The notes under the pieces were generated by a model. It did no database searches and had not been told where the DNA came from. It saw nothing but the letters and a program-made list of their open reading frames with translations. A stretch of DNA of 64,000 nucleotides from an uncultured Planctomycetota bacterium (GTDB lineage: Bacteria > Planctomycetota > SKW154 > DAOVDS01): positions 65 to 64,064 of the forward strand of contig CAZXNM010000010.1 of assembly GCA_964641955.1 (NCBI GenBank), given 5' to 3'. Every line of letters begins with the position of its first letter. Position 1 is the first letter of the stretch. Made by a program: the position numbers and the translations under genes. This document shows, piece by piece, positions 2,000 to 34,629 of this stretch.

Positions 2000-2051
2000 G
2001 CTTGCTCCGTCACAGTTAGGAGAAGGATTGTATTGGGGACGCGGCCCTCTG

Positions 2052-4301: not shown

Positions 4302-4409
4302 TCTCCCCGGCGAGCAGGCAGCATGGGCTCGCGTGCGCTCACCTGTTCCAAGTATACGACAATCCATGGCAAGCGCAACCTGAATTGGATAAAACCAATA
4401 CCGACGGGG

Positions 4410-22003: not shown

Positions 22004-22027
22004 AGCGGCGTTTCTCTTAAAGAAGAA

Positions 22028-22057
22028 GGCGGCAGGCTGAAGCCTGCCGCCTTTTCA
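22028..22057. terminator. Bidirectional intrinsic terminator (GGCGGCAGGC-tgaa-GCCTGCCGCC with T-rich flanks on both strands)
   Basis: 10-bp perfect GC-rich stem with a 4-nt loop, between convergent ald (+) and the GltB-like gene (-). TTTTCAT follows on the plus strand and TCTTCTTTAAG on the minus strand. Confidence 0.6.
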
Positions 22058-22078
22058 TACCTCTGGTGCCGCCTCGAA

Positions 22079-23656
22079 CTAACCCAGAATCTTCTCCACT
22101 TCTTCCCTGTCGAGGTCGCTCACCATCGGTATACCGCTGATTTTCGACGCCTCGGGCGTCAGGGCCGCGAGGTCGTCGCGTGAGATGTGCTCGAGTGCGA
22201 ACTTGCGCGAGCCGCACATGAGCTGGCGCATGCCTTGCGCAAGCCGCTCGTAATAAGTGTAGACACCCAGCGCGGCGGTCGGGATATCCTTGTAGTCGGC
22301 GCCGAACTCGCGCTTGAGGTGTTCGGCGGTGACGAAGATGGATTCCCTGTCCCTGCCGAAGCGCTCGAGGAATATGGGGAGCTGTCCGCTGTCGAGCGCC
22401 TTGCCGATAGTCTTGCCGACCATTGCGGCCGCGAGCGGAGCCCTGGCCATGCCGATTGCCTTGACGTACGGCGCGCCGAGGGCGAAGCACTTGAATATCT
22501 GGTCTTCGAGCACAATGCCGCTGGCGAAGACAATATCGGGCACGTACTCGCCCTTCGCGGCGAGCCTTTCGCAGTACTGGCGCGTGAGCGACCAGAGTTC
22601 GATGGGCGGCACGCCCCACTCGTTCATCATGCGCCACGGGCTCATGCCCGTGCCGCCGCCGGCCGCATCGACCGTCAGGTAGTCTATCTTGCCGAGGGAC
22701 GAGAACTTGACGGCGCGGGCGAGGTCGGCGGGCCTGTAGGCGCCCGTCTTGAGCGTGATGTACTTCGCGCCCGCGTTGCGGAGTTCCTCGACGCGGGCGA
22801 GGAAGCTCTCCTCGGTGACCATGCCTACGCGCGAGTGGCGCTCGAACTCGGTGAATACGCCTTTCTTGAACTCCTCGACGACGTTCGGGTCGAGCGGGTC
22901 GGGCAGTACGACGTAGCCGCGCTTCTTGAGAAGCTGGGCCTTTTCGAGGTTCTTTATCTTTACCTCGCCGCCTATGTCCTTGGCGCCCTGGCCCCACTTG
23001 AGCTCGACGGTGCGAATGCCGAGCTTCTCCAGAGCGTATTCCTGCGCGCCCAGCCGCGTGTCCTCGATGTTCGCCTGCAGGATTATCTCGCCGAAGCCGT
23101 CGCGCTGCCACTTCTGGAAGAGCTTGATGCGCCACTCGAGGTCGGGCGAATGCTGGACGCGACCGTTCTCGATTTTCGACTCGACATCCATGCCGCAGAC
23201 GTTCTCGCCTATCGTGAGCGCTCCTCCCGCAAGAGCGGAGCCGACCGCGAGGCCGTCCCAGTTTATCTTCGCGACGTTAGTGGAACCCAGACCCGGAATG
23301 ATAATGGGGAGACGCAGCTTGATGCCCTTGTCGTGCCCGAGCCTCGCCTCGAGGTTCACATTCGGGAAAATGGCCTTGTCCGAATCGGCCTCGATTCCGA
23401 TTGCTCCGACCGCCGTCCCCATTACGTTGAAGTGCGACAGGTCAACCGGGTAGTCCTTCTGCGAGGCGGTCGTGATAATGCCGAACGGCTGCGGGTAGAT
23501 GACCTCGTGGCCGCGGTAGGCGCTCTTGCCTATCTCGCACATGCCTATGCAGCCATCGACGCAGGTGACGCACATGCCGCTGCCCGGCGACCAGTCACCG
23601 CCCGTCCTGTTCTTCGTCAGCGTTGCCGCCGTCGCGTTGTACCTTGTCAACGTCAT
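22079..23656 (-). CDS. Standalone glutamate-synthase central-domain (FMN/Fe-S, Glu_synthase-family) protein, paralog 1; last gene of the sigma54-controlled operon
   Basis: N-terminal 4-Cys cluster (CVTCVDGCIGMCEIG), then the FMN-binding GltB domain-2 core (MSPWRMMNEWGVP, GG(T)GxSP-like motifs). AAGGAG lies 7 nt before the ATG at 23656. No amidotransferase or GXGXG domains. Confidence 0.8.
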   Translation of the reverse strand: MTLTRYNATAATLTKNRTGGDWSPGSGMCVTCVDGCIGMCEIGKSAYRGHEVIYPQPFGIITTASQKDYPVDLSHFNVMGTAVGAIGIEADSDKAIFPNVNLEARLGHDKGIKLRLPIIIPGLGSTNVAKINWDGLAVGSALAGGALTIGENVCGMDVESKIENGRVQHSPDLEWRIKLFQKWQRDGFGEIILQANIEDTRLGAQEYALEKLGIRTVELKWGQGAKDIGGEVKIKNLEKAQLLKKRGYVVLPDPLDPNVVEEFKKGVFTEFERHSRVGMVTEESFLARVEELRNAGAKYITLKTGAYRPADLARAVKFSSLGKIDYLTVDAAGGGTGMSPWRMMNEWGVPPIELWSLTRQYCERLAAKGEYVPDIVFASGIVLEDQIFKCFALGAPYVKAIGMARAPLAAAMVGKTIGKALDSGQLPIFLERFGRDRESIFVTAEHLKREFGADYKDIPTAALGVYTYYERLAQGMRQLMCGSRKFALEHISRDDLAALTPEASKISGIPMVSDLDREEVEKILG

Positions 23657-23716
23657 GCCCTGACTCCTTTCAAACCTTGCTAGCTATCCTTTGCCTTGAT
23701 TTCTCCTGGTCCCACT

Positions 23717-24382
23717 TTAATAGACTTTGTGGCCCGCGGCTCCCACGCTTTCCGAGCATCCTATGCATATTGGGCACGTCTCTACGGGTTCAAGATTTTG
23801 ACACCCGCCGCAGAGGCCATTGCTGAGACGGCCCGCAAGGCAGGCATTCTCACAAGCGGGGCATACCCACTCGCAGCCCCCGCAGTTGCGGCACTCCTCC
23901 GGCGTCACACCGAATGCAGTAGCCACCCTGCGCTGGTTACCGCGGCCCACAAAGCCTATTCCACCTGATTGCATCTGTTCCTTGCAATACCTGACACAGA
24001 GGCCGCAGAGGATGCAGCCCTTGTCCTTGATTTTGAAGCGTATCTCATTCAGCCCCATGTTAGAGGCCATGTCCTGAAGCGTCTTGGAGTTGGGGCATGA
24101 TGCAATGAGAAGCTCCAATATGACCTTCCGGGCCTTCTTTACGCGCTCTGTGCTCGTCAGAATCACCTGGCCCTGCGCCACCGGCAGGGTGCAGGAGGTC
24201 TCGAGCTTCGATTTCTTGCCCCTCACCACCTCCACAAGGCACATCCTGCACGCGCCGTACGTGCTCAGGCCCGGGTCGTAGCAGAGAGTGGGAATGATTA
24301 TCCCCATCTGCCTTGCAGCTTCGAGGACGGTGGTCCCTTCCTCGGCTCTTACGGGCATCCCGTCGATAGTAAGCTCAACCAT
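23717..24382 (-). CDS. NuoG-N-terminal/HndD-like ferredoxin ([2Fe-2S] plus two [4Fe-4S] motifs)
   Basis: MVELTIDGMPVRAEEGTTVLEAARQMGIIIPTLCY...CRMCLVEV is the 2Fe-2S region. CILCGLCVRYC and CRNCGGCEWVCP are the 4Fe-4S motifs. 221 aa. Confidence 0.7.
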   Translation of the reverse strand: MVELTIDGMPVRAEEGTTVLEAARQMGIIIPTLCYDPGLSTYGACRMCLVEVVRGKKSKLETSCTLPVAQGQVILTSTERVKKARKVILELLIASCPNSKTLQDMASNMGLNEIRFKIKDKGCILCGLCVRYCKEQMQSGGIGFVGRGNQRRVATAFGVTPEECRNCGGCEWVCPACENACLAGRLSNGLCGGCQNLEPVETCPICIGCSESVGAAGHKVY

Positions 24383-24398
24383 GTCAGCTCCATCCCGG

Positions 24399-26258
24399 TT
24401 AAGTTACGATAATAGCCTCGAACTTGCAGCTGTCGCGGCACAGGCCGCATCTTATGCACTTATCCGAATCGATGCTGTGCGGCTTCTTCTTTTCTCCCAA
24501 TATCGCCTCCTGGGGGCACGCCTTCGCGCACCTGCCGCATCCCGTGCATTTCTCCTCGTCAATGGAGAATGTGATAAGCGCCTTGCACGCGCCAGCCGGG
24601 CATCTTTTGTCCCTGATGTGGGCCTCGTACTCGTCGCGGAAGTAGCGAATCGTAGAGAGGACAGGATTCGGTGCCGTCCCGCCCAGAGCGCACAACGCCG
24701 CATCCTTGATGACGCCTCCGAGTTCCTCGAGCAGCTCGATGTCGCCTTCCTTCCCGCGGCCCTCGGTTATATCGGTGAGGATGTCGAGAATCCTATCGAG
24801 GCCCTCGCGGCAGGGAACGCACTTGCCGCAGGACTCTTCGGTCAGGAATTTCGTAAAGTAGCGGGCGAGGTCCACCATGCAGGTGGTCTCGTCCATAACA
24901 ATCATGCCGCCGGAGCCCATCATGGACCCGACCTTCGTAAGCTCGTCGAAGTCCACCGGCGAGTCTATAAGGCTCTCGGGAATGCATCCGCCGGATGGGC
25001 CTCCGGTCTGGACCGCCTTGAACTTCCTCCCGCCCGGGATTCCTCCGCCAATCTCGTATATTATTTCCCGCAGGGTGATGCCCATGGGCACTTCCACGAG
25101 GCCCGTGTTGTTAATCTTTCCCACGAGCGAGAATATCTTGGTGCCCTTGCTGCCCTCGGTGCCAATGCTCGAATACCAGTCGGCCCCCTTGCCGATTATC
25201 AGCGGTATGTTCGCCCAGGTCTCGACGTTGTTGAGGTTGGTTGGCCTGTTGTGCAGGCCGCTGACCACGGTGTGTATGTGTTTCGGCCTGGGCTCGCCAA
25301 TCTTGCCCTCGAGCGAGGCCATGAGCGCAGTTGACTCGCCGCAGACGAACGCGCCGCCGCCGCGCGAGACCTTGATGTCGAAGTTGAACTTCGAGCCCAG
25401 TATCTTCTTTCCCAGCAGCCCGTACTTCTTCGCCTGCTTGAGCGCCTTCTCCAGGTTTTCGACCGCGAGGGGATACTCGTGCCTGACGTAGACGTATCCC
25501 TCGCTGCTGCCTATCGCGTACGCACCTATAATCATGCCCTCGATGACGCTGTGGGGGTTGCCTTCGAGCAGGCTGCGGTCCATGTATGCGCCCGGGTCGC
25601 CCTCGTCCGCATTGCAGATTACGTAGCGGATGCCGTCGTGGGCAGGCGCGTTTCGCGCCGTCTCCCATTTCCTTCCGGTCGGAAATCCGCCGCCCCCGCG
25701 TCCGCGAAGCCCCGACTTCTTCACTTCCTCGATCACTTCCTCGGGCTTCATCTCGAAGAGGACCTTCGACAGCGCGGAATACCCGCCGATTGCCATGTAA
25801 TCTTCAATGCTGGTGGGGTCGATAAAACCGTTGCTGCCGAATACGAGCCTTTTCTGCTTCGCGTAGAATGGCACTTCTTCTTCGAGCTTGATTTTTTCCT
25901 TCGAGACTGGATCCCTGTACAGTAACCTCTCCACAATCCTGCCGTTCGCGAGCGTCTCTGTCACTATCTCGGGCATGTCATTCGGCTCGACCCGCTCGTA
26001 CATTATCTTTTCCGGATGTACCACGACAAGCGGACCGCGCTCGCAGAACCCGTGGCAGCCGGTGAGTTTCATCTCGATGCTGCCGTCGAGTCCCTGCTTC
26101 TTGATTTCCTTCTTGAGCCTGTTCGCGACCTTGACGCAGCCGTAAGCGCGGCATCCCGTGCCGCCGCAGACCGTGACAAGCCTCTTCTGCCTGCCTTTGT
26201 CGCCCTGGAGTCCCGCCCTGAATTCTTCCAGCTCAGTCGCCGACCGCAACTTTTTCAT
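24399..26258 (-). CDS. NuoF/HndC-like NAD(P)H-binding flavoprotein (51-kDa-subunit homolog) with extra ferredoxin domains
   Basis: NAD(H)/FMN motifs (GRGGGGFPTGRKWE, CNADEGDPGA), the SLBB region, the 4Fe-4S motif CGKCVPCREG, and C-terminal 2x[4Fe-4S] (CTGCGRCAKACP, CIRCGLCRDSC). 619 aa. Confidence 0.85.
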   Translation of the reverse strand: MKKLRSATELEEFRAGLQGDKGRQKRLVTVCGGTGCRAYGCVKVANRLKKEIKKQGLDGSIEMKLTGCHGFCERGPLVVVHPEKIMYERVEPNDMPEIVTETLANGRIVERLLYRDPVSKEKIKLEEEVPFYAKQKRLVFGSNGFIDPTSIEDYMAIGGYSALSKVLFEMKPEEVIEEVKKSGLRGRGGGGFPTGRKWETARNAPAHDGIRYVICNADEGDPGAYMDRSLLEGNPHSVIEGMIIGAYAIGSSEGYVYVRHEYPLAVENLEKALKQAKKYGLLGKKILGSKFNFDIKVSRGGGAFVCGESTALMASLEGKIGEPRPKHIHTVVSGLHNRPTNLNNVETWANIPLIIGKGADWYSSIGTEGSKGTKIFSLVGKINNTGLVEVPMGITLREIIYEIGGGIPGGRKFKAVQTGGPSGGCIPESLIDSPVDFDELTKVGSMMGSGGMIVMDETTCMVDLARYFTKFLTEESCGKCVPCREGLDRILDILTDITEGRGKEGDIELLEELGGVIKDAALCALGGTAPNPVLSTIRYFRDEYEAHIRDKRCPAGACKALITFSIDEEKCTGCGRCAKACPQEAILGEKKKPHSIDSDKCIRCGLCRDSCKFEAIIVT

Positions 26259-26748
26259 GCTTCTCGCCCTTCGGTGCTTTCCTGTATTTCTTGAGAATAT
26301 CCTTAACCTTCCCAGGAGTCATCTGGCCGTGGTATGTGCCATCTACGACCACGATGGGGCCGAGCGCACACGCACCGAGGCAGTTGACCGTCTCGAGCGT
26401 AAATTTCATGTCCCCGGACGTCTCGCCGGCCTTGATGCCCAACTCGCGCTGCAGCTCGTCGAGAACAGCCGGCGCTCCGCGAACGTGGCAGGCCGTCCCG
26501 AGGCAGACGCTGACAAGGTGTTCTCCCCTGGGCTTCAGGCTGAACGCCCGGAAGAACGTAGCGACCCCGTAGACCTGGATGTGGGGCAGGTTCAAGCTGT
26601 CGGCAACGCGCCTGAGAGCCTCTTCGGGCAGGTAATGATATTCGGATTGAATATCCTGCAGAATGGAGATAAGCGAGTCGCGGTTCCTGCCGTTTCTGTC
26701 GATTATCTTATCCACCCTTCGGGCAATACCCTCTACTCTCCGTATCAT
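26233..26748 (-). CDS. NuoE/HndA-like thioredoxin-fold [2Fe-2S] protein (24-kDa-subunit homolog)
   Basis: The four Cys of the NuoE cluster are present (CLGTACHVRG...CLGACALGP). Overlaps the nuoF-like start by 26 nt. Confidence 0.8.
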   Translation of the reverse strand: MIRRVEGIARRVDKIIDRNGRNRDSLISILQDIQSEYHYLPEEALRRVADSLNLPHIQVYGVATFFRAFSLKPRGEHLVSVCLGTACHVRGAPAVLDELQRELGIKAGETSGDMKFTLETVNCLGACALGPIVVVDGTYHGQMTPGKVKDILKKYRKAPKGEKHEKVAVGD

Positions 26749-26751
26749 TGT

Positions 26752-27060
26752 CTATGACCTTCCTTCGCTGAGTTTTCTGGCATAGCTTAGGTAGTGCCTG
26801 AGCAGCCACATCTTCTCCATATACTCGCTCCAGCCACACTCGGGCTTGAAGCCCTTTTCCGCCCTCGGAAGCACCATGCATCCTTCGGTCACGCAGCCTT
26901 TCATCTCTTCCCACATGTCAGACCAGACCTTCAGCGCATCCCGCAAAACAGAGGCGGTGACATTCCTGAGATGTCTGAGCTTCTTTTCGGGCGTGCAGAG
27001 TTCTGACAGGAGTTCGCCGTCTTTGCCAACGCCTATCGGTACGTCAAACTTCCCGCGCAT
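26752..27060 (-). CDS. Small conserved hypothetical protein (102 aa), paralog of the upstream gene
   Basis: ATG at 27060 with GAGGAGG at spacing 8; the ORF track extends to 27138. The C-terminal half (ALKVWSDMWEEMKG...LRHYLSYARKLSEG) matches the upstream paralog (ALEIWMEISRACN...LGHYLDYTRRLCDG). Stop lies 3 nt before the nuoE-like start. Confidence 0.45.
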   Translation of the reverse strand: MRGKFDVPIGVGKDGELLSELCTPEKKLRHLRNVTASVLRDALKVWSDMWEEMKGCVTEGCMVLPRAEKGFKPECGWSEYMEKMWLLRHYLSYARKLSEGRS

Positions 27061-27436
27061 CCGTTGTTCCTCCTCTTTTTTCTCGAGCGGCAATTGAGCC
27101 GTCACAGAGCCTTCGTGTATAATCGAGGTAATGCCCAAGCAGGTCGAGCTTCCTCCTCAAATCATCCCAGCCATGCAAAGGAAGCCGACTGGCGGGTTGT
27201 TCATCACCCTCAAGAATTTGCTCAACAGAGCGCACGTCATTACAGGCTCTGGAAATCTCCATCCAGATCTCAAGAGCCTTATTGATGATTGTGGCAGAGA
27301 TTCCCATGAAGTGCCTCATCTGGGCATTTACGCGTTCCATTTCTTTACGGAGATGCTCGTCATGACTGCTCACTGGAGAATCATGCGCATCCTTCAGGTT
27401 GTTACTTCTTCTTACCACCAGAAATAATCCTCTCAC
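27044..27436 (-). CDS. Small conserved hypothetical protein, first gene of the sigma54-controlled operon (start uncertain)
   Basis: GTG at 27436. Internal ATGs at 27340 and at 27307 (the latter with GAGG at spacing 6) are alternative starts. Paralogous to the 26752..27060 product. Confidence 0.4.
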   Translation of the reverse strand: MRGLFLVVRRSNNLKDAHDSPVSSHDEHLRKEMERVNAQMRHFMGISATIINKALEIWMEISRACNDVRSVEQILEGDEQPASRLPLHGWDDLRRKLDLLGHYLDYTRRLCDGSIAAREKRGGTTDAREV

Positions 27437-27693
27437 TTCAGATAATCACTGCCTCTCGCAGGTCCGGGATTTCAACTTCACTGCTGTTGAGGTTTATCTT
27501 CCGAATTGTTTCGTTCCTTCTCCGACAGCGTCGCGGACGGCTTCACCTGCGTATCTTCTTCAAACTCATCGCACTCAAGCACCCAGCCTTCAGGCTTTAT
27601 GTATGTACATGTTCCTCTCTTCTTGCAGCGTTCACAAATGCCCCGGGTCACAGGCAGTTACCTTCTAAAAATTCACAGAAACAGCGCCGAATT

Positions 27694-27712
27694 AAGCAAC
27701 CTGCGTGCCACT
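27694..27712 (-). promoter_or_regulatory. Sigma54 (-24/-12) promoter: minus-strand TGGCACG-cagg-TTGCT driving the operon below
   Basis: Minus-strand read of 27712..27696 is TGGCACGCAGGTTGCTT, matching the consensus TGGCACG-N4-TTGCW with GG-N10-GC spacing exact. Predicted start site near 27684, about 250 nt upstream of the first operon gene and next to an NtrC-family activator gene. Confidence 0.6.
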
Positions 27713-27737: not shown

Positions 27738-27923
27738 GCAACCTCTTGCCATAAAAGGACTTGAGGTTGCACAAAGCCTTTGCCTGTCGGAGAAAGCGGG
27801 ACGACCTCTGCTGCTAGTGCAACAGCAATGCTGTCTTGCGCTGCACTAAGGCATCTAACATATTGTCAGACAAGGGCTTATGGATGTGTGCAAGGATTGA
27901 ACACTACTGATGGATTTCCATCA
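27738..27923. promoter_or_regulatory. Three palindromes upstream of the sigma54 promoter (candidate enhancer/UAS sites)
   Basis: GCAACCTC-N17-GAGGTTGC at 27738-27770, TAGTGCA-N20-TGCACTA at 27815-27848, and TGATGGA-tt-TCCATCA at 27908-27923, all 25-215 bp upstream of the -24 element. Confidence 0.4.
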
Positions 27924-27931
27924 CGCATCAG

Positions 27932-29374
27932 CTATTCGGGGCTGCTGGTCACGATACCGTATTTCTTGATTCTGTGCCGCAGAGTGTTTCTGCTGACACC
28001 CAGCATTCTGGCGGCTTTGACCTGGTTGTTGCCGCATTCCCCGAGAGACCTTCTGACAAGCATTTCTTCAACCAAGTCTATGAGATTCGCATGTATCCCC
28101 TGACTGGAAATCTGGAGTACGTCGGATATCGCATCTTCAATTCTGGCTTTGACGTTAGCGAGGAGTTTCTCTTGGATTCCAGTGCGAGAAATGTCTTTCT
28201 CGTCTTCAAGTTCTATATGCTCATCAGCAACAACATCGCTCTTGCAGATTAGAATCGCCCGCTTTATACAGTTCTCAAGCTCCCTTACGTTGCCCGGCCA
28301 TGAGTACGACTGGAGCTTTCTTATCGCCGTATCGGCAACGAATCGCACCGGTTTGTCGAGTTCCTTGCCGAAACGTCCGACAAAGTAATCTACAAGAGCA
28401 GGGATGTCTTCCAGGCGTCTCCGTAGAGGAGGAAGGTCGATGGAGATCACCTTGAGGCGCCAGTACAAGTCTTCTCTGAACTTCCCTTCCTCGACCTCCT
28501 TTTCCAGATTCTTGTTAGTGGCCGCTATCATGCGCACGTTTATCTTGACAGTCTCCGAACCTCCAAGCCTTTCAAACTCTCCTTCCTGCAGTACTCTCAA
28601 CACCTTGGACTGAGTGGATAGCGACATATCTCCTATCTCATCGAAGAACAGCGTGCCGTTGTTGCATCTCTCAAACTTGCCGATGAAACTGCGATCGGCA
28701 CCGGTAAAAGCACCGCGCTCGTATCCAAACAGCTCACTTTCAAAGAGGTTGTCGGGTATAGCCGCGCAGTTTATCGCTAAAAAGGGCTTGTCTTTCCTGT
28801 GACTGTGGTGGTATATCGCCCTCGCGACAAGCTCCTTTCCCGTCCCGCTCTCCCCTGTTATCAGGACACTAACGTCCTTACCCGCGACCTGTCCAATGAG
28901 CTTGAATACTTCCTGCATTCTCTGGTGGCTGCCGACAATCTTGACGACGCCCTTGCCCGCCGGAGAGACCTTACTCACGTCGTGAGGGAAGCTAACAACC
29001 TCTTTCATTAAACGGTTCACTTCGAGTGCATCTGCAGCTATCCTTTTAAGCTGCTCCATGTCGAAAGGCTTGAGCAGGTAATCGTACGCACCCAGCTTCA
29101 TAGCTTCGATGGCGGTTTCCGTCGTTCCGTATGCAGTCATAATTATCACGGGCGTCTTGAGTTGCGCTTTCCTGATTTCCTTGAGCGTCTCAAGCCCGCT
29201 CAATCCCGGCATCTTGTAGTCAAGCAAGACCAAGTCGAATTGTTCCTCCGACAATCGCTTGAGCGCTGAGGTGCCGTCGGTGCATGTGCTCACATTATAT
29301 TTCTGCTTCGTGAACAGCCGCTTCAGGAAATGCAGCAGACTCTCATCATTGTCAACCAGCAGTATCTTATCCAT
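27932..29374 (-). CDS. Sigma54-dependent response regulator (NtrC/Fis family; receiver, AAA+ and HTH domains)
   Basis: From the ATG: MDKILLVDNDESLL...D54-like LLDYKMPG, a sigma54-interaction domain (GESGTGKELVARAIH, GAFTGA, ESELFGYERGAFTGA) and a C-terminal Fis-type HTH (VKAARMLGVSRNTLRHRIKKYGI). The ORF track begins at an upstream TTG (29464). Confidence 0.85.
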   Translation of the reverse strand: MDKILLVDNDESLLHFLKRLFTKQKYNVSTCTDGTSALKRLSEEQFDLVLLDYKMPGLSGLETLKEIRKAQLKTPVIIMTAYGTTETAIEAMKLGAYDYLLKPFDMEQLKRIAADALEVNRLMKEVVSFPHDVSKVSPAGKGVVKIVGSHQRMQEVFKLIGQVAGKDVSVLITGESGTGKELVARAIYHHSHRKDKPFLAINCAAIPDNLFESELFGYERGAFTGADRSFIGKFERCNNGTLFFDEIGDMSLSTQSKVLRVLQEGEFERLGGSETVKINVRMIAATNKNLEKEVEEGKFREDLYWRLKVISIDLPPLRRRLEDIPALVDYFVGRFGKELDKPVRFVADTAIRKLQSYSWPGNVRELENCIKRAILICKSDVVADEHIELEDEKDISRTGIQEKLLANVKARIEDAISDVLQISSQGIHANLIDLVEEMLVRRSLGECGNNQVKAARMLGVSRNTLRHRIKKYGIVTSSPE

Positions 29375-29429
29375 GTGCTCTGTCACCTTCCGAGGTCTTG
29401 AGGCGGGAAGCTGTTCTCTGCTGCCGGCC

Positions 29430-31274
29430 CTAGTCGCCTCGCTCGTGTACCACGGGAAGAACAATCGAGAAACTCGACCCCTTTCCCTGTTTACTCTCTA
29501 CATGGATTTCTCCTCCATGCGCCCGTATGGTGGTTTGGGCAATTGAGAGTCCCAGCCCCGTTCCCGACGCCTTTGTAGTGAAGAACGGGTCAAACAATTT
29601 CAGGATGGATTCTGATTCTATCCCAGGGCCCGTATCACCCACCTCGATTCGCACACAATTTTGCAACCTGCCATCAAGCTCCTCGCGGCCAGAAGTCGCC
29701 CTTATGGTCAAGACGCCCTTCACGGTCATGGCCTCAAGTGCATTCACCAGAAGATTCAGGAGAGCTTCGCCGAGTTGCTTCTTGTCACCTCTTATATCCG
29801 GGAGGCCATTGGCGATGTCCTTTCTGACGATGGTCTCCTGCTGGTAGGCTTTCGGCTGGACGACGAGAAATGAGTCATCAATCAGCTGCGCGATATTCAC
29901 GGTCGAGAAGACAGGTTCCTGGGGTTTGGCGAAATCGAGGAACCGGTTTATCGTCGCCTCTATCCGCTTTACCTGCAACATGGCAAGCTCGAAATCCTTT
30001 GTGTATTCTGGCGAGATTTCTATCTCGCTTTTCACCGACTGCAGAAAGAGCTTCAATGACGAAAGCGGCGTTCTTATCTCATGCGTGACACCGGCTGCCA
30101 GCTGCCCAAGTGCGGCAAGCCGCTGCGACCTGGCTGCCGCTTCCTCGGTTCTGCGCAGCTTCACGTCGGTTTCTTTCAATTCCGTCTGTGTTGACTCTAC
30201 TTTTTCCTCGAGGCTGTTGTGTTTGGCCTGAAGCTGACTCGCCATGTTGCCAAACGCAGTGTAGAGAACGCCTATCTCGTCGCCGCGGTCCGTCTTCAAC
30301 TGCGTACCCGTAAAATCGCCTCTCGCCAACATGTCCGCCGCGCTGCTCAGTCGTTCTACTGGCCTGGCGATGTAGTACCCGAGGAGCCAAGCAACTGCGA
30401 TGGCGGCGAGGATTGACAGGATAAATACTGTAAGCACGTAGCGCTTCAGTCGATCCGAGCTTTCAAATGCTTCATCCCTGTCCTGCTCGACCACGAGATG
30501 CCAATCCGTGCCAGAAACACCACGTGTTGCTCCAAGAACTTCGATACCCCTGTAGTCCGTGTAGGCACTCTTCCGGTTTCTCTTGCCAAAGATGTTCTTG
30601 AAGCTCCCCGACTGGGCTATGCTCTCAGAAAGAATCCGTTGGGGCTCCTTGTGCGCAAGGAAGGTTCCCTCCTTGTCCACAAGATAGCATTCGCCTGTCC
30701 GGCCAAGAGAAACCTTGAGCACTATGGAAGAAATCGCCTCCGTGCCCACCACTTCGCAGATAACACCACGGATTGCGCCTTTCTCGCCGTATATCGGCGC
30801 TGAAATCCGAAAGACAGATTCGTTCCAGTGCGGCTCGATACTGATTTCGGACAGATACAGCTCGCCAGCCCGGGCCCGTTTGAACCATTCCTCGCCTGAA
30901 TGGTCTCCCTTTTCCGGGGAGTTATTGAAAAGAGTGTCCCCATCCTTGTTGACAATCATAAATCCCCTGTAAACCCCGTATTCTTTCCCGACAAGCTCGA
31001 TATACGGGCGCATCAGGGACGGGTCCATCGCTTTCACCACAGACGAACCGGCTATTACCCGAGCATCCGCCTTGCGTTCCAAGAGCCACCTTTCAACCAG
31101 GTCCCTCTTGTCGTTGGCAACATTTTCCAGGCGGCTGGTTACCATGTTCGTGATAAGCTCATCCGCAGTGTGCACTGAGAAGACACTTACTACTCCCAAA
31201 GGCACGATTGATACTATCATGAAGAGTAGCATTACTCTGACGTGAAGCCTGTTGAGGAATCCGACAGCTGCCAA
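29430..31274 (-). CDS. Sensor histidine kinase (extracytoplasmic Cache/PDC-like sensor, HAMP, HisKA, HATPase_c)
   Basis: N-terminal transmembrane helix, a sensor domain of about 250 aa, a second helix, HAMP, an H-box (LAAGVTHEIRTPLSSL), and N/G1/G2 boxes (LLNLLVNALEAM, DTGPGI, GTGLGLSI). Its 3' end overlaps the regulator gene. Confidence 0.8.
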   Translation of the reverse strand: MAAVGFLNRLHVRVMLLFMIVSIVPLGVVSVFSVHTADELITNMVTSRLENVANDKRDLVERWLLERKADARVIAGSSVVKAMDPSLMRPYIELVGKEYGVYRGFMIVNKDGDTLFNNSPEKGDHSGEEWFKRARAGELYLSEISIEPHWNESVFRISAPIYGEKGAIRGVICEVVGTEAISSIVLKVSLGRTGECYLVDKEGTFLAHKEPQRILSESIAQSGSFKNIFGKRNRKSAYTDYRGIEVLGATRGVSGTDWHLVVEQDRDEAFESSDRLKRYVLTVFILSILAAIAVAWLLGYYIARPVERLSSAADMLARGDFTGTQLKTDRGDEIGVLYTAFGNMASQLQAKHNSLEEKVESTQTELKETDVKLRRTEEAAARSQRLAALGQLAAGVTHEIRTPLSSLKLFLQSVKSEIEISPEYTKDFELAMLQVKRIEATINRFLDFAKPQEPVFSTVNIAQLIDDSFLVVQPKAYQQETIVRKDIANGLPDIRGDKKQLGEALLNLLVNALEAMTVKGVLTIRATSGREELDGRLQNCVRIEVGDTGPGIESESILKLFDPFFTTKASGTGLGLSIAQTTIRAHGGEIHVESKQGKGSSFSIVLPVVHERGD

Positions 31275-31420: not shown

Positions 31421-33010
31421 TCACGAATTTAGGATTTCTTCCGCCTGAGACCTATAAGCATCCATGACGTATGGAATGCCCGTAATATCGGTGCATTCCC
31501 TCGAAAGGCTCATGAGGTCATCGCGGGAAATCTTGTCGAGAGTGAAGTGCCGGGCTCCAGCCATCAGCTGCTGAAGTCCGACCGACATCTTCTGGGCGTA
31601 CGAGTATATTCCAATCGCGCCCAGCGGTATGTTCTTCATCTCGTCCTTGCCGACTATGTCTGCCACTTCCTCCCAGCAGACGAAAAGCTCTTCCGGCTTC
31701 GCGCCGTAGCCTTCAAGTGACTTGGGCAGATTGTTGTCCTTGATCCACTCGGCTGCGTTCTTGCCGACCATACCGGGTATCATAAGCGCGCGTCCCATGC
31801 AGATTGCCTTCACGTAAGGAGCGCCAAGCGCGATAGCCTTGAAGGCATGGTCTTCTGCGCTGAATCCGCCTGCAAACGCCAGGTCGGGAACCCTCTCGCC
31901 ATTCTTGGTCAGCTTATCGGCAAACTGGACTGCCGCAGCGTGCAGGTGCAGAGTCGGCACGCCCCACTCGTTCATCATGCGCCACGGGCTCATGCCGGTA
32001 CCGCCACCAGCGCCGTCTATCGTGAGAAGGTCAACTTCGCCCTTGCTGCCCCATTTGAGGGCCATGGCGAGTTCGCGAAGACCGTAGGCCCCAGTCTTGA
32101 GAGTGATTCTCTCGAATCCGATCTTACGCAAACGGTCACATTCCGCGAGGAACGACTCCTCGCTTATGAAGCCCAGCCTGCTGTGACGCTCGAATTCCTT
32201 TATCGCTCCGTCCTTGAATGCGGCCTGAACGACAGGATCCTCGGGGTCGGGTGTCACGATGTAGCCCCGGCCCTTCAACTGCAGTGCTCTTTCCAGTGAG
32301 CCTATCTTTATCTCGCCGCCGATGCATTTCGCGCCCTGGCCCCACTTGAGTTCTATCGTGTTCAGGCCGTGCTTCTCGTGAACGTACTCCCCAACACCAA
32401 GCCGGGTGTCTTCTACGTTCATCTGAACGAGAATCTCACCGTAACCTCTGTGGTAGCGCTTGTAGACCTCCATGCGGCGGTCCATGTCGGGCGCTTTGAC
32501 GACCTTGCCGTTCTTGAGCTCAAGCTTGGGGTCAATACCGCAGACATTCTCGCCACATACGATGGTGCATCCGGCCAGTGCCGCGCCGATTGCGAAGTGC
32601 TCCCAGTTCGCCCGTGCTATTTCCGTTGAACCCAGCGCACCTGTAAAGAACGGGGCGAGCATCTTGACTTTCTTCTCCCAGCCGTACTCGGTTTCAACAC
32701 TTACAGCGGGAAAAGTACATGTGTCAGGGTTTGCATCTACGCCCTCAGGGAGCCCATCGCCGCCAAGTGCGTAACCCTGGATGTTAAGGTGCGTGTAGTC
32801 AACGGGATAGTCCTTGTCGGCACCTGCGGTTACCTTGCCGAACGGTCCCGGGTAGATAAGTTCCCTGCCCCGGAAAGTTGCCAGCCAGACTTCGCAAGTA
32901 CCGCGACAACCATCAACGCACCGTGAACATAAACCTGAAAGCGGCGCCACGCTCCGCGACCTGTTTGAGGTCTTGGTGGCATCATCTGCATTTGGCCTCT
33001 GCAGCGTCAT
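31421..33010 (-). CDS. Standalone glutamate-synthase central-domain (FMN/Fe-S) protein, paralog 2
   Basis: Colinear with the 22079..23656 product (CSRCVDGCRGTCEV ... MSPWRMMNEWGVP ... same C-terminal region) at about 40% identity. AAGGAAGG RBS. Confidence 0.8.
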   Translation of the reverse strand: MTLQRPNADDATKTSNRSRSVAPLSGLCSRCVDGCRGTCEVWLATFRGRELIYPGPFGKVTAGADKDYPVDYTHLNIQGYALGGDGLPEGVDANPDTCTFPAVSVETEYGWEKKVKMLAPFFTGALGSTEIARANWEHFAIGAALAGCTIVCGENVCGIDPKLELKNGKVVKAPDMDRRMEVYKRYHRGYGEILVQMNVEDTRLGVGEYVHEKHGLNTIELKWGQGAKCIGGEIKIGSLERALQLKGRGYIVTPDPEDPVVQAAFKDGAIKEFERHSRLGFISEESFLAECDRLRKIGFERITLKTGAYGLRELAMALKWGSKGEVDLLTIDGAGGGTGMSPWRMMNEWGVPTLHLHAAAVQFADKLTKNGERVPDLAFAGGFSAEDHAFKAIALGAPYVKAICMGRALMIPGMVGKNAAEWIKDNNLPKSLEGYGAKPEELFVCWEEVADIVGKDEMKNIPLGAIGIYSYAQKMSVGLQQLMAGARHFTLDKISRDDLMSLSRECTDITGIPYVMDAYRSQAEEILNS

Positions 33011-33507: not shown

Positions 33508-34629
33508 TTACAGATTGTGCTTGCGGAACCCCATGGCCGCCTTCACCCTCTCCTTGGCCATGTTGATTGCCGCGTCCCTGGGCAGGTCGCCGCCCTTGAC
33601 CCTGTCGAGAAGTTCCTTCACGTTCTGCTCGATTCTGAATTTGATGAACGGGAAGACCTCGTTTTCGCTCTTGTCGTGATACTCAAGGGCACCACAGATG
33701 ACTCCGCCGGCATTGGCGATGAAGTCCGGTATGACCAGGACGCCCCTTTTGTGAAGCTCGGCCTCCGCCTCGACTGTCGCGGGAATGTTTGCGCCCTGAA
33801 CAATCAGCCTGGCCTTGACGCCCGCGACGTTGTCCATGGTGATGCAGTCCGGCCTTGCTGAAGGATAGAGAATGTCGCACTCGGCCGTGACGACATCCTC
33901 TTTCTTCGAGAGCTTCTCGGCTTTCTTGTAATCCGTGACCTTGCCGGTCTTGGCCTTGACCTTGACGAGTTCATCGACGTCGATGCCGTCGGGGTTGTAG
34001 ATGGCGCCCTTGCTGTCGCTGGCGCCGACGAGAATCGCGCCCCTCTCGTCCATGAATTGCGCCGTGGGCCGGCCCACGTTGCCGAACCCCTCGATGACGT
34101 ACTTGGAGCCTTTGATGTCTATCTTCGCCGTCGGGGCGGCCACTTCGGTCGCAATTACGCAGCCGTACGCGGTCGCGCCGATTTCATCAAGCGGAATGCC
34201 GCCGAGGCTCCTCGGCAGGCCGACGCAGCGCCCTATCTCGTCGAAGACGTACGCCATGCTGCCTTCGTCGGTGCCCATGTCCGGGCCGGGGATGTACTCG
34301 GTGACGTTGCGAATCATCCGGGCGAAGGTGCGAATCAGTTCTTCGCGCTTCTCCTCGGGCTGGGTCGGGTCGGCGATAATGCCGGATTTCCCGCCGCCGT
34401 GCTTCAGGCCAGCCGCAGCGTTCTTAAAGGTCATGCCCCTGGCGAGCCTGAAAACCTCGGTTGTCGTGACATCGGGCACCATCCTGACGCCGCCTATCGC
34501 GGGGCCCCTCGCCACGTTGTCAACGCATACTATAGCTCTCAGCCCCACTTTCGGCTCATAGAGATGCATTACTCTCATGGGACCAATATCATCCTGCAGA
34601 TTTTCGCAGATGAAATCGCAAGGTTCCAT
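33508..34629 (-). CDS. Glu/Leu/Phe/Val-family amino-acid dehydrogenase (glutamate dehydrogenase-like)
   Basis: A GGxK active-site region (KHGGGKSGI) and an NAD(P) Rossmann motif (GFGNVG), 373 aa. GGAGGTG RBS 5 nt before the ATG at 34629. Confidence 0.85.
   Translation of the reverse strand: MEPCDFICENLQDDIGPMRVMHLYEPKVGLRAIVCVDNVARGPAIGGVRMVPDVTTTEVFRLARGMTFKNAAAGLKHGGGKSGIIADPTQPEEKREELIRTFARMIRNVTEYIPGPDMGTDEGSMAYVFDEIGRCVGLPRSLGGIPLDEIGATAYGCVIATEVAAPTAKIDIKGSKYVIEGFGNVGRPTAQFMDERGAILVGASDSKGAIYNPDGIDVDELVKVKAKTGKVTDYKKAEKLSKKEDVVTAECDILYPSARPDCITMDNVAGVKARLIVQGANIPATVEAEAELHKRGVLVIPDFIANAGGVICGALEYHDKSENEVFPFIKFRIEQNVKELLDRVKGGDLPRDAAINMAKERVKAAMGFRKHNL

What the first reader, a model, noticed from the sequence alone, without database searches (positions are those of the whole stretch)
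22079..27712. Sigma54-driven operon coupling a NuoE/NuoF/NuoG-N-like NAD(P)H module to a standalone GltB central-domain protein: candidate undescribed glutamate-synthase-type complex
Six tightly packed minus-strand genes follow a near-consensus sigma54 promoter, with gaps or overlaps of -26 to +60 nt. In order they encode: two paralogous small unknown proteins, a NuoE-like [2Fe-2S] protein, a NuoF-like NAD(P)H/FMN protein with extra ferredoxin domains, a NuoG-N-terminal-like 2Fe-2S/4Fe-4S ferredoxin, and a roughly 525-aa protein that is only the FMN/Fe-S central domain of the glutamate-synthase large subunit. The last carries an extra N-terminal 4-Cys motif and has no amidotransferase domain, no GXGXG domain and no GltD partner. 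Canonical GOGAT takes electrons from NAD(P)H through GltD. Here a complex-I-type NuoEF(G) diaphorase module appears to replace GltD. That suggests an NAD(P)H-linked, possibly ammonia-dependent or electron-bifurcating, 2-oxoglutarate amination system. The flanking genes are alanine dehydrogenase, a Glu/Leu/Phe/Val-type dehydrogenase, a second GltB-central-domain paralog and an NtrC-type two-component pair, so the whole block looks like one nitrogen-assimilation unit.
Basis: partly seen in the sequence, partly recalled or inferred. Interest (0 to 1): 0.85.

Follow-up and report, generated by a model that had tools for sequence, protein, structure and literature searches.

The report
Bifurcating-type NADH module plus glutamate-synthase-like flavoprotein
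A tightly packed, sigma-54-controlled operon joins the NADH/ferredoxin electron module known from bifurcating hydrogenases to a stand-alone, divergent glutamate-synthase-type flavoprotein; the same gene set is kept in hundreds of anaerobic species but I found no description of it, and it may be an unrecognised route for making glutamate from ammonia.

Summary
Window 22026-27710 (minus strand) is one compact unit. It runs from an exact sigma-54 -24/-12 site to a strong hairpin terminator.

It holds seven ORFs, not six. A conserved 57-aa four-Cys ORF directly after the promoter was missed.

The NuoE/NuoF/NuoG-N-like genes are a complete BfuC/BfuB/minimal-BfuA module of the HydABC ("Bfu") family. 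This includes the His/Cys B2-site ligands.

The 525-aa protein is a divergent PF01645 (glutamate-synthase FMN domain) member. It carries an invariant N-terminal four-Cys motif. It lacks the GltB 3Fe-4S motif, the amidotransferase domain and the GXGXG domain.

The order NuoE, NuoF, BfuA-like, GltB-like is kept in 67 of 67 informative loci from many phyla. In about half of all loci, NuoF is fused to a full GltD.

Recurrent neighbours are ELFV dehydrogenase, glutamine synthetase, NrpR and sigma-54 two-component pairs. Alanine dehydrogenase is not recurrent.

Most likely function: NADH (plus ferredoxin or NADPH)-driven, ammonia-dependent reduction of 2-iminoglutarate to glutamate. This is inferred, not shown.

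I rate it a new variant of known kinds; ten literature searches found no description.

The parts
27696..27710 (-). Sigma-54 -24/-12 promoter, TGGCACGCAGGTTGC
   Evidence: This is the only exact TGGCAC-N5-TTGC match in the window. Matches with at most one mismatch lie upstream of the NuoE gene in 13 of 62 relatives, against about 2.5 expected. Most of these relatives have an adjacent sigma-54 activator.
27738..27893 (.). Candidate activator-binding region with repeated TTGCAC/GTGCAA half-sites
   Evidence: Inverted repeats I1-I3 lie 30-190 nt upstream of the promoter. That these are binding sites is inference only.
27481..27651 (-). Small 57-aa four-Cys protein (G-I-C-x2-C-x5-C-x11-C-D-E-F).
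   Evidence: Homologous ORFs, usually about 99 aa with two such repeats, sit just upstream of the NuoE gene in at least 19 loci. In L046 one repeat is fused to NuoE. The family has at least 1575 database clusters, all unnamed and without a Pfam domain.
27044..27436 (-). Small paralogue 1 (about 98-130 aa; start uncertain: GTG 27436, GTG 27418 or ATG 27340)
   Evidence: The ORF is listed. It is paralogous to the next ORF. It was found only in the window, L005 and L007, so it is a lineage-specific accessory.
26752..27060 (-). Small paralogue 2 (102 aa; ATG preceded by AGGAGG)
   Evidence: Sequence read. This exact 102-aa product is on record for the source contig. It has no Pfam or NCBIfam family.
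26233..26748 (-). BfuC / NuoE / HoxE-like thioredoxin-like [2Fe-2S] subunit
   Evidence: PF01257 at 177 bits over the full length; the NCBIfam HoxE and NuoE models also match.
24399..26258 (-). BfuB / HydB / NuoF-like NADH-FMN subunit. It has an N-terminal 2Fe-2S domain, the N3-type 4Fe-4S cluster, the B2-site ligands C460/T498/H547/C553/C558, and two C-terminal 4Fe-4S motifs (C571-C581 and C601-C611).
   Evidence: Pfam domains. It scores 800-815 bits over the full length to solved bifurcating BfuB chains 7q4v_B, 7t2r_B, 9mqx_B and 8a6t_B. The B2 ligands were mapped on the 7t2r_B alignment using the residue numbers given in PMC9304861. They are conserved in 69 of the 70 aligned homologues.
23717..24382 (-). 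Minimal BfuA (NuoG-N / HoxU / WorA-like). It has 2Fe-2S (A1), two CxxCxxCxxxC 4Fe-4S motifs and a Cys-rich tail. The His-ligated cluster motif is absent.
   Evidence: Fer2_4 plus Fer4 domains. The best solved match is 9mqx_A, the 247-aa WorA of the A. mobile WorABCSL complex, at E 6e-34. WorA likewise lacks cluster A3 and uses its C-terminus to dock the catalytic module (PMC12318220).
22079..23656 (-). Stand-alone GltB-like FMN TIM-barrel protein. It has an invariant N-terminal motif C29-x2-C32-x3-C36-x3-C40, a QGAK motif at residues 223-226, and GGGTGMSP at residues 333-340.
   Evidence: PF01645 at 37 bits is the only Pfam hit. The AlphaFold model is a TIM barrel. It is 31% identical over the full length to the synthase half of an FrhB fusion protein. 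Invariant residues were taken from alignments A1 and A2.
22026..22053 (-). Intrinsic terminator hairpin (12-bp stem, 9 G-C pairs, T-rich tail), lying between the operon and the convergent alanine dehydrogenase gene
27932..29464 (-). Sigma-54-dependent response regulator (receiver + AAA+ + HTH_8)
   Evidence: Domains. A homologous regulator lies upstream on the same strand in 22 of 80 relatives.
29430..31274 (-). Sensor histidine kinase (dCache_1, HAMP, HisKA, HATPase_c)
31421..33010 (-). Second GltB-like paralogue (529 aa, 50% identical to the first; same Cys and QGAK motifs)
   Evidence: It belongs to its own large, conserved family. In L086 this type also follows NuoE, NuoF and BfuA-like genes.
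33508..34629 (-). ELFV-family amino-acid dehydrogenase (373 aa), closest to hexameric glutamate dehydrogenases
   Evidence: ELFV genes lie in 17 of 80 relatives' loci, mostly directly flanking the operon.

Best explanation
The unit encodes one soluble iron-sulfur flavoprotein complex.

Proposed parts:
- A Bfu-family electron module, made of BfuC (NuoE-like), BfuB (HydB/NuoF-like: NADH site on FMN, presumed ferredoxin site in the C-terminal 2x[4Fe-4S] domain) and a minimal WorA-like BfuA.
- A stand-alone, divergent, archaeal-type glutamate-synthase FMN subunit. Its N-terminal four-Cys motif takes the place of the GltB 3Fe-4S cluster.

Proposed electron path: BfuB FMN and clusters, then BfuA clusters A1/A2/A4, then the N-terminal cluster of the GltB-like subunit, then its FMN.

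Proposed chemistry at that FMN: 2-iminoglutarate, formed from 2-oxoglutarate and free ammonia because no glutaminase domain is present, is reduced to L-glutamate.

Using NADH together with reduced ferredoxin would make ATP-independent ammonia assimilation strongly exergonic. In the GltD-fused relatives the second donor would be NADPH.

Expression depends on sigma-54 and an adjacent dCache sensor kinase / AAA+ activator pair.

The small four-Cys protein is probably an extra metal-binding subunit attached to BfuC.

Shown here: gene content, motifs, synteny and context.
Inferred: complex formation, electron path, substrate, direction, and any bifurcation or confurcation.
For: Architecture
- The unit is compact, with an exact sigma-54 site and a terminator.

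Bfu membership
- BfuB scores 800+ bits over the full length to solved bifurcating enzymes.
- It has every B2-site ligand, including the His said to be diagnostic of bifurcating members.
- The BfuA-like protein is most similar to WorA of a characterised bifurcating complex.

Coupling to the GltB-like subunit
- The order NuoE, NuoF, BfuA-like, GltB-like on one strand is kept in 67 of 67 loci with enough upstream sequence. These come from Planctomycetota, Chloroflexota, Zixibacteria, Aminicenantes, Bacillota, ANME-1 archaea and others.
- The GltB-like subunit is the most conserved part, at 68-82% identity across phyla.

Glutamate-synthase link
- PF01645 is the only Pfam family hit.
- The QGAK and GGTGxSP motifs match the E. 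coli GltB motifs QGAKPGEGG and DGGTGASP.
- Full-length homology, including the Cys motif, exists to the synthase half of an FrhB fusion. That fusion matches the published 'putative F420-dependent glutamate synthase' architecture (PMC3448663).
- In 39 relatives a full GltD (about 35% identical to E. coli GltD) is fused to NuoF.

Nitrogen context
- Glutamine synthetase lies nearby in 7 loci and the NrpR nitrogen repressor in 5 loci plus L086.
- ELFV/GDH-like dehydrogenase lies in 17 loci.
- Sigma-54 activators lie upstream in 22 loci.

Ammonia dependence
- No amidotransferase or GXGXG homologue was found in the window or within +/-10 kb in any of 86 loci.
Against: - No biochemical or expression data exist for any member.
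- Similarity to canonical GltB is remote. phmmer and a family profile find no GltB chain in the PDB. hhalign to E. coli GltB gives only 42% probability over 83 columns.
- The active-site loops of the model have low confidence.
- My hand alignment of R246 with the GltB 2-oxoglutarate-binding Arg is not robust, because the FrhB-fused relative has Lys there.
- The 2-oxoglutarate + NH4+/glutamate couple is, from general knowledge, well above NADH in potential. It is therefore not the mid-potential 'third substrate' typical of Bfu enzymes (Table 1 of PMC9304861).
- Glutaminase and GXGXG subunits could be encoded elsewhere in the genome.
- A co-encoded GDH-like enzyme would seem redundant with an ammonia-dependent glutamate synthase.
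- dCache kinases are generic sensors, not nitrogen-specific.
Confidence: 0.5

Rival explanations
1. Same complex, opposite physiological direction. It would be an electron-confurcating amino-acid (glutamate) dehydrogenase, analogous to the Ldh/Etf lactate dehydrogenase. Glutamate oxidation, which is uphill with NAD+, would be pulled by co-oxidation of reduced ferredoxin: Glu + Fd(red) + 2 NAD+ gives 2-oxoglutarate + NH4+ + Fd(ox) + 2 NADH.
For: - Many hosts are peptide- or amino-acid-fermenting lineages such as Aminicenantes, Zixibacteria and Dehalococcoidia.
- ELFV dehydrogenases are frequent operon neighbours.
- The kinase has a dCache domain of the kind that often senses amino acids or organic acids (the ligand class is general knowledge).
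- From general thermodynamic knowledge, the midpoint between glutamate/2-oxoglutarate and ferredoxin is close to NADH.
Against: - Glutamine synthetase and the NrpR nitrogen repressor as neighbours point to assimilation.
- In the Bfu mechanism as described, the third substrate supplies mid-potential electrons and NAD is the high-potential partner. This does not fit a high-potential amino-acid donor.
- No 2-oxoglutarate:ferredoxin oxidoreductase genes recur in the loci.
Confidence: 0.13
2. The FMN subunit acts on a different substrate, such as another 2-oxo or imino acid, an N-alkyl-glutamate-type reaction as in MgsC, or an unrelated enoate or hydroxy-acid. The glutamate-synthase label would then reflect fold ancestry only.
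For: - The Pfam match is partial, and canonical GltB is barely detectable.
- The structural neighbours are hydroxy-acid oxidases, IPP isomerase II and IMPDH.
- Two paralogues, 50% identical, coexist in the window, and a second GltB-like copy lies in the locus in L008 and L035. This suggests substrate diversification.
- ELFV enzymes of unclear specificity are neighbours.
- MttB-family methyltransferases lie near L001.
Against: - The QGAK and GGTGxSP motifs are of GltB type.
- GltD fusions occur in half of the family.
- Glutamine synthetase and NrpR are neighbours.
- Identity of 68-82% across phyla argues for a single central-metabolic substrate.
Confidence: 0.2
3. It is a conventional glutamine-dependent, archaeal-type split glutamate synthase. 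Its amidotransferase and GXGXG subunits would be encoded elsewhere in the genome, and the Bfu module would simply act as its NADH diaphorase without ferredoxin coupling.
For: - Split three-gene archaeal-type enzymes and modular electron-input subunits have been proposed for methanogens (PMC3448663).
- Glutamine synthetase is adjacent in 7 loci.
Against: - No amidotransferase or GXGXG homologue lies within +/-10 kb in any of 86 loci or in the 64 kb window.
- The BfuB keeps every feature of the ferredoxin-linked, bifurcating members rather than the simpler NuoF/HoxF type.
Confidence: 0.12
4. The genes are neighbours by chance or by shared regulation only. The Bfu-like module would serve another partner such as a hydrogenase or formate dehydrogenase.
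For: An [FeFe]-hydrogenase-like gene lies in three loci (L017, L024, L062), upstream of the NuoF-like gene, and was annotated from the L017 copy.
Against: - Synteny is 67 of 67 across phyla, with matching strand and order.
- The genes have overlapping or short-gap junctions.
- No hydrogenase or Fdh catalytic subunit lies in the window unit.
Confidence: 0.03

Closest known systems
Bfu (HydABC) family of electron-bifurcating enzymes, Type 2, e.g. WorABCSL of Acetomicrobium mobile (PDB 9mqx; PMC9304861, PMC12318220)
   Same: - A BfuC + BfuB + small BfuA core.
- The BfuB has an N-terminal 2Fe-2S domain, FMN, B1, the B2-site ligands (Cys/Thr/His/Cys/Cys) and a C-terminal 2x[4Fe-4S] domain.
- The BfuA lacks the His-ligated A3 cluster and has a Cys-rich C-terminus, as WorA does.
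- The catalytic site for the third substrate sits on a separate subunit.
   Different: - The third-substrate subunit is a GltB-like FMN protein. This is not among the third reactions listed for the family (H2, formate, NADPH, F420, CO, pyruvate, aldehydes, menaquinone, H2O2, benzoyl-CoA).
- Its presumed couple is high-potential.
- A small four-Cys protein accompanies the core.
- In half of the relatives the presumed ferredoxin-binding C-terminal domain of BfuB is replaced by GltD.
Bacterial NADPH-glutamate synthase GltBD (e.g. E. coli, Azospirillum)
   Same: - A PF01645 FMN barrel with QGAK and GGTGxSP motifs.
- An Fe-S cluster presumably next to the FMN.
- In relatives, a full GltD homologue supplies a pyridine-nucleotide site and two 4Fe-4S clusters.
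   Different: - No Ntn amidotransferase domain, no 'central' domain and no GXGXG domain.
- No CX5CX4C 3Fe-4S motif; an N-terminal CX2CX3CX3C motif is present instead.
- No GltD in this window.
- Sequence similarity is so low that HMMER does not connect the two.
[quoted passage not shown]
   Same: - A stand-alone, roughly 500-aa FMN-domain subunit with N-terminal Cys ligands.
- The electron-input module is exchangeable. An FrhB fusion (P0378) is 31% identical over the whole GltB-like length.
   Different: - The input module here is BfuABC (NADH/ferredoxin) rather than FrhB (F420) or ferredoxin domains.
- No adjacent glutaminase or GXGXG genes.
- FGltS itself is only a prediction.
NfnABC / Stn transhydrogenase (Bfu enzyme with a GltD-like domain)
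   Same: It combines a BfuBC core with a GltD-type FAD/NADPH module, as the NuoF-GltD relatives of this operon do.
   Different: - In Nfn/Stn the GltD-like domain is on BfuA and is itself the catalytic end-point.
- Here it is fused to BfuB, and a further FMN subunit follows.
- The window variant has no GltD at all.

Membership tests
Bfu (HydABC-type) bifurcating family | BfuB is a NuoF-like FMN/NADH domain plus the N3-type 4Fe-4S (B1), with an N-terminal thioredoxin-like 2Fe-2S domain and a C-terminal 2x[4Fe-4S] domain that non-bifurcating NuoF/HoxF lack | tested here: met
   Pfam finds 2Fe-2S_thioredx (residues 24-101), Complex1_51K, SLBB, NADH_4Fe-4S and Fer4 x2 (residues 565-615). The protein scores 800-815 bits over the full length to 7q4v_B, 7t2r_B, 9mqx_B and 8a6t_B, against about 390 bits for the core only of Thermus Nqo1.
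Bfu (HydABC-type) bifurcating family | B2-site ligands (Cys, Cys/Thr, His, Cys, Cys). The His is reported as conserved in nearly all BfuB and absent from non-bifurcating homologues (PMC9304861). | tested here: met
   C460, T498, H547, C553 and C558 align with C438, C476, H525, C531 and C536 of 7t2r_B. They are conserved in 69 of the 70 aligned homologues from the loci.
Bfu (HydABC-type) bifurcating family | BfuC is a NuoE-like protein with one 2Fe-2S cluster | tested here: met
   PF01257 at 177 bits over the full length.
Bfu (HydABC-type) bifurcating family | BfuA has the A1 (2Fe-2S) and A2 clusters, and in Type 2 members A4 without A3 or A5 | tested here: met
   Fer2_4 plus two CxxCxxCxxxC motifs are present, and there is no HxxxCxxCx5C motif. 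The best solved relative is WorA, 9mqx_A. Assignment of individual clusters is by motif only.
Bfu (HydABC-type) bifurcating family | Tightly coupled three-substrate (NAD, ferredoxin, third substrate) bifurcation or confurcation activity | not testable with these tools
   This needs an enzyme assay.
Glutamate synthase large subunit, FMN/synthase domain (PF01645) | Match to the family profile above its curated cut-off | tested here: met
   The 525-aa protein scores 37.0 bits and the paralogue 54.3 bits, against a cut-off of 20.4. Only profile positions of about 186-308 of 369 are covered. No other Pfam family reaches E <= 0.01.
Glutamate synthase large subunit, FMN/synthase domain (PF01645) | Detectable similarity to canonical GltB, by sequence to solved and E. 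coli GltB and by fold to solved GltB structures | tested here: inconclusive
Glutamate synthase large subunit (complete GltB) | 3Fe-4S cluster motif CX5CX4C after the FMN barrel | tested here: not met
   The Cys residues are at positions 29, 32, 36, 40, 154, 362, 390 and 481, so no such motif exists. An invariant N-terminal four-Cys motif is present instead.
Glutamate synthase large subunit (complete GltB) | N-terminal class-II (Ntn) glutamine amidotransferase domain and C-terminal GXGXG beta-helix domain | tested here: not met
   tblastn with the E. coli GltB domains finds neither in the window nor in 86 loci. No Pfam GATase_2 or GXGXG hit was found.
NADPH-GOGAT holoenzyme (GltBD) | GltD small-subunit partner | tested here: not met
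   GltD is absent from the 64 kb window. It is present as a NuoF-GltD fusion in 39 related loci.
Archaeal-type / FGltS-type stand-alone GltS FMN subunit | A roughly 500-aa FMN domain with an N-terminal Cys cluster, homologous over the full length to the synthase part of modular (e.g. FrhB-linked) enzymes | tested here: met
   The profile hit to P0378 covers query positions 26-403 at E 3.5e-50. BLASTP gives 31% identity at E 2e-45 and includes the Cys motif. P0378 consists of Fer4 + FrhB_FdhB + Glu_synthase, the last at 64 bits.
Glutamate synthase (any type) | Catalyses reductive synthesis of L-glutamate from 2-oxoglutarate | not testable with these tools
   Context only: glutamine synthetase, NrpR and ELFV dehydrogenase are neighbours.

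The most novel reading that the evidence does not exclude
This would be the founding example of a 'Glt-Bfu' enzyme: an ATP-independent, ammonia-dependent glutamate synthase. It would draw on NADH together with reduced ferredoxin, or in reverse conserve energy by reducing ferredoxin while making glutamate. It would serve as a main nitrogen-assimilation route in hundreds of mostly uncultured anaerobic lineages, and it would include a previously unrecognised small four-Cys subunit.
Probability: 0.3. Interest if true: 0.85.

Novelty: new variant of a known kind. Interest (0 to 1): 0.72.

Why it matters
Glutamate formation is the entry point of nitrogen into biomass. Textbooks list GDH and the ATP-costly GS/GOGAT cycle, with NAD(P)H or ferredoxin as donors.

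A complex that wires the bifurcating BfuBC core to a glutaminase-less glutamate-synthase-type flavoprotein would add two things:
- a new 'third reaction' to the Bfu family;
- a new energetic solution for ammonia assimilation, or for amino-acid oxidation, under energy limitation.

The operon occurs in at least 587 species representatives and many thousands of metagenomic proteins, at 68-82% identity for the catalytic subunit. Its function therefore affects metabolic reconstructions of Planctomycetota, Dehalococcoidia, Zixibacteria, Aminicenantes, ANME-1 and others. In those reconstructions it is currently annotated piecemeal as 'NADH dehydrogenase subunits' plus 'FMN-binding glutamate synthase family protein'.

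Tried and rejected
1. Direct sequence links to solved GltB. phmmer and a 17-sequence profile found no GltB chain. hhalign to E. coli GltB aligned only the FMN-phosphate motif region.

3. Hand alignment of R246 to the 2-oxoglutarate-binding Arg of GltB. I abandoned this as evidence because the FrhB-fused relative has Lys there and the loop length differs.

4. AlphaFold of the 57-aa four-Cys ORF gave pLDDT 54, which is uninformative.

5. Pfam on the small proteins found nothing.

6. Rfam on 20-35 kb gave no family above threshold. The weak CsrC hit at 22024-22055 coincides with the terminator-like hairpin.

7. Ten full-text literature searches found no paper describing this operon. The terms covered Bfu/HydABC, NuoEF, gltB, 'FMN-binding glutamate synthase' and FGltS. 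The Bfu survey and its one held supplement do not mention glutamate synthase.

9. 'Alanine dehydrogenase is part of the unit' is rejected. The gene is convergent, lies beyond a terminator, and is a neighbour in 1 of 80 relatives.

Full report
OBSERVATION

The minus strand of window 22026-27710 carries a compact gene series:
- GltB-like protein, 22079-23656, 525 aa
- 2Fe-2S/4Fe-4S protein, 23717-24382, 221 aa
- NuoF-like protein, 24399-26258, 619 aa
- NuoE-like protein, 26233-26748, 171 aa
- two small ORFs, 26752-27060 and 27044-27436

Junctions between successive genes are -17, +3, -26, +16 and +60 nt.

Pfam and NCBIfam confirm the domain calls:
- NuoE-like: PF01257, full length.
- NuoF-like: N-terminal thioredoxin-like 2Fe-2S, Complex1_51K, SLBB, NADH_4Fe-4S and two C-terminal Fer4 motifs.
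- 221-aa protein: Fer2_4 plus a 4Fe-4S dicluster.
- 525-aa protein: one hit only, PF01645 Glu_synthase, at 37 bits (cut-off 20.4) over profile positions 186-308 of 369.

The two small proteins are paralogues. BLASTP gives E 2e-10 and jackhmmer gives reciprocal hits.

TGGCACGCAGGTTGC at 27696-27710 is the only exact sigma-54 consensus match in the 64 kb window. A hairpin with a 12-bp stem and a T-rich tail at 22026-22053 follows the last stop codon. It separates the unit from the convergent alanine dehydrogenase gene.

A SEVENTH ORF

The 'leader' between the promoter and the first small gene is coding.
- A GTG at 27651, preceded by GAAGG, opens a 57-aa ORF: MTRGICERCKKRGTCTYIKPEGWVLECDEF...
- tblastn and a motif scan find the same four-Cys module just upstream of the NuoE-like gene in at least 19 related loci. 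There it is usually a protein of about 99 aa with two repeats.
- In L046 one repeat is fused to the N-terminus of NuoE.
- A profile search returns at least 1575 protein clusters. All are 'hypothetical' and none has a Pfam domain.
- The structure prediction was uninformative.

By contrast, the two paralogous small proteins occur only in the window and its two closest relatives, L005 and L007. They are a lineage-specific addition.

THE ELECTRON MODULE IS A BFU CORE, NOT A GENERIC DIAPHORASE

The NuoF-like protein aligns end to end, at 800-815 bits, with BfuB/HydB chains of structurally characterised bifurcating enzymes. These are 7q4v, 7t2r, 9mqx, 8a6t, and NfnB 9n5u. Complex-I NuoF matches only its core, at about 390 bits.

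I used the residue numbers given for the A. mobile NiFe enzyme in PMC9304861. All five B2-site ligands are present: C460, T498, H547, C553 and C558. They are conserved in 69 of the 70 aligned homologues from related loci. The paper states that this His is present in virtually all BfuB and absent from non-bifurcating homologues.

The best solved relative of the 221-aa protein is WorA (9mqx_A, E 6e-34), the small BfuA of the bifurcating aldehyde oxidoreductase WorABCSL. WorA also lacks cluster A3. It uses a Cys-rich C-terminal part and an adaptor helix to dock the catalytic module (PMC12318220).

By the published scheme this is a Type 2 Bfu arrangement: BfuA with A1/A2/A4, and the catalytic site on an extra subunit.

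THE 525-AA PROTEIN

It belongs to a very large and unusually conserved family.
The best 120 hits are all 525-526 aa and at least 77% identical, and they come from Planctomycetota, Chloroflexota and others.
- At least 587 GTDB species representatives encode a relative.
- The 80 best loci (68-82% identity) include Zixibacteria, Aminicenantes, KSB1, Bacillota, Chlorobiaceae, Scalindua and ANME-1 archaea.
- In the 50%-clustered library the family is compact: 1462 clusters at E <= 1e-3, and only about 15 full-length clusters among the top 150. It is therefore well separated from canonical GltB.

Invariant features:
- C29-x2-C32-x3-C36-x3-C40
- GENV
- ELKWGQGAK-x-IGGE
- FERHSR
- LKTGAY
- D-x-A-x-GGTGMSPW

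The QGAK and GGTGxSP motifs correspond to E. coli GltB QGAKPGEGG and DGGTGASP. The GltB 3Fe-4S motif (C-x5-C-x4-C) is absent.

Links to canonical GltB are otherwise weak.
- There are no PDB hits by phmmer or by profile.
- hhalign gives 42% probability.

A bridging relative exists. P0378 (800 aa) is Fer4 + FrhB/FdhB fused to a GltB-like domain. That domain matches PF01645 better (64 bits, positions 57-305). It is 31% identical to the window protein over the full length, including the Cys motif. This architecture is what Susanti and Mukhopadhyay called a putative F420-dependent glutamate synthase (PMC3448663).

I therefore file the protein as a divergent, stand-alone, archaeal-type GltS FMN subunit. 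I do not file it as a fragment of canonical GltB.

CONSERVATION OF THE CLUSTER

In all 67 loci that hold at least 3.3 kb upstream of the GltB-like gene, NuoF-like and BfuA-like genes precede it on the same strand. A NuoE-like gene lies upstream wherever sequence allows. The same four-gene cluster, with identical lengths, occurs in a JGI/NCBI contig.

Two variants exist:
- Variant 1: a HydB-like BfuB of about 616-625 aa. This occurs in the window, Dehalococcoidia, ANME-1, Dethiobacter and Scalindua.
- Variant 2: a protein of about 1050-1090 aa in which the C-terminal ferredoxin domain is replaced by Fer4_20 + Pyr_redox_2. This is a full GltD, about 35% identical to E. coli GltD, and it occurs in 39 loci.

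The second paralogue type (529 aa) is also found behind a NuoE, NuoF, BfuA module in L086, but it is solitary in L084.

CONTEXT

Recurrent neighbours are:
- ELFV dehydrogenase in 17 of 80 loci. Fifteen are on the same strand, often directly after the GltB-like gene or directly before NuoE.
- A sensor kinase plus a sigma-54 activator upstream in 22 of 80 loci.
- Sigma-54-like -24/-12 sites in 13 of 62 loci, against about 2.5 expected.
- Glutamine synthetase in 7 loci.
- The NrpR nitrogen repressor in 5 loci plus L086.

Alanine dehydrogenase is a neighbour only once.

No class-II amidotransferase or GXGXG homologue lies in the window or in any locus.

The window's ELFV enzyme is closest to hexameric glutamate dehydrogenases. 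The kinase is a dCache/HAMP sensor, not NtrB-like.

Sigma-70-like candidates precede the kinase gene, the second paralogue and the ELFV gene. The 'block' is therefore probably several transcription units.

The rest of the window (DUF1570, HEAT, WD40, Ser/Thr kinase) and the best hits suggest a Planctomycetota genome. This is an inference.

MECHANISM (INFERRED)

NADH is oxidised at the BfuB FMN. Electrons pass through BfuA A1/A2/A4 to a cluster on the N-terminal Cys motif of the GltB-like subunit, and then to its FMN. There 2-iminoglutarate, formed from 2-oxoglutarate and free ammonia, is reduced to glutamate.

The retention of every BfuB feature associated with ferredoxin coupling suggests that reduced ferredoxin is a co-donor, i.e. 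confurcation. This is what has been proposed for the high-potential Rub- and Nuo-Bfu members. It would make ammonia assimilation far more exergonic than with GDH, and it would cost no ATP. In the GltD-fused variant, NADPH would take the place of ferredoxin.

The reverse reaction (glutamate oxidation pulled by ferredoxin), another substrate, or a glutamine-dependent enzyme with distant partner genes all remain possible.

Only gene content, motifs, synteny and context are shown. Complex formation, substrate, direction and energy coupling are inferred.

NOVELTY

The published survey of Bfu enzymes lists H2, formate, NADPH, F420, CO, pyruvate, aldehyde, benzoyl-CoA, menaquinone and H2O2 as third reactions. 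It does not mention a glutamate-synthase-type partner. Ten full-text searches found no description of this operon. Absence from this library is not proof of absence.

The parts are all of known kinds, so I rate it a new variant of a known kind. It is widespread and functionally untested.

Interest is 0.72. The score is high because of breadth, conservation and the bearing on nitrogen assimilation energetics. It is tempered by the lack of any functional evidence.

Noticed in passing
window 27481-27651 (-); also e.g. L028 4916-5179, L078 4845-5099, L046 5153-6064: An unannotated small four-Cys protein family (G-L/I-C-x2-C-x5-C ... C-E-E-F/Y, usually two repeats in about 99 aa) always sits just upstream of the NuoE-like gene, and in L046 it is fused to NuoE. 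The family has at least 1575 database clusters, all 'hypothetical' and without a Pfam domain.
   Followed up: yes
L028 6123-9299 (and 38 other loci): The NuoF/BfuB-like protein is fused at its C-terminus to a full-length GltD (Fer4_20 + Pyr_redox_2). This fusion replaces the 2x[4Fe-4S] domain thought to reduce ferredoxin. The B2-site ligands are kept.
   Followed up: partly
L028 5237-6085 and many loci; L046 5153-6064: In many relatives the NuoE-like subunit is about 282-330 aa. In L046 the C-terminal extension visibly carries several CxxC pairs of zinc-ribbon type. The window protein (171 aa) lacks such an extension.
   Followed up: no
alignment of NuoF homologues: About half of the relatives have lost the first two Cys (positions 31 and 36) of the N-terminal thioredoxin-like 2Fe-2S domain of BfuB. 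The window protein keeps all four.
   Followed up: no
protein P0378 (800 aa, metagenomic): This is a fusion of Fer4 + FrhB/FdhB (an F420-binding module) with a GltB-like domain of this family. It shows that the FMN subunit is combined with different electron-input modules.
   Followed up: partly
L017 2294-3574; homologues in L024 and L062: An [FeFe]-hydrogenase-like gene (Fe_hyd_lg_C + Fer4 + 'FeS' domain, 427 aa) lies upstream of the NuoF-like gene in three loci (between the NuoE- and NuoF-like genes in L017 and L024).
   Followed up: no
L006, L010, L013, L014, L016, L081 (just upstream of NuoE); L011 (downstream of the GltB-like gene, opposite strand): In Dehalococcoidia, a HisF-like (His_biosynth) gene of 256 aa immediately precedes the NuoE-like gene in six loci. 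NrpR and glutamine synthetase genes lie close by.
   Followed up: no
window 20888-22003 (+): The alanine dehydrogenase gene (TIGR00518 at 512 bits) is convergent with the operon and shares the terminator hairpin. Its adjacency is not conserved (1 of 80 loci).
   Followed up: yes
window 1992-6419 (+): A 1475-aa ORF has no Pfam match at E <= 1e-5.
   Followed up: no
L086 5382-7231: In this long-read assembly the NuoF-like gene upstream of the second-type GltB-like paralogue is split into two ORFs of 292 and 332 aa. This is probably a frameshift or an assembly error.
   Followed up: no
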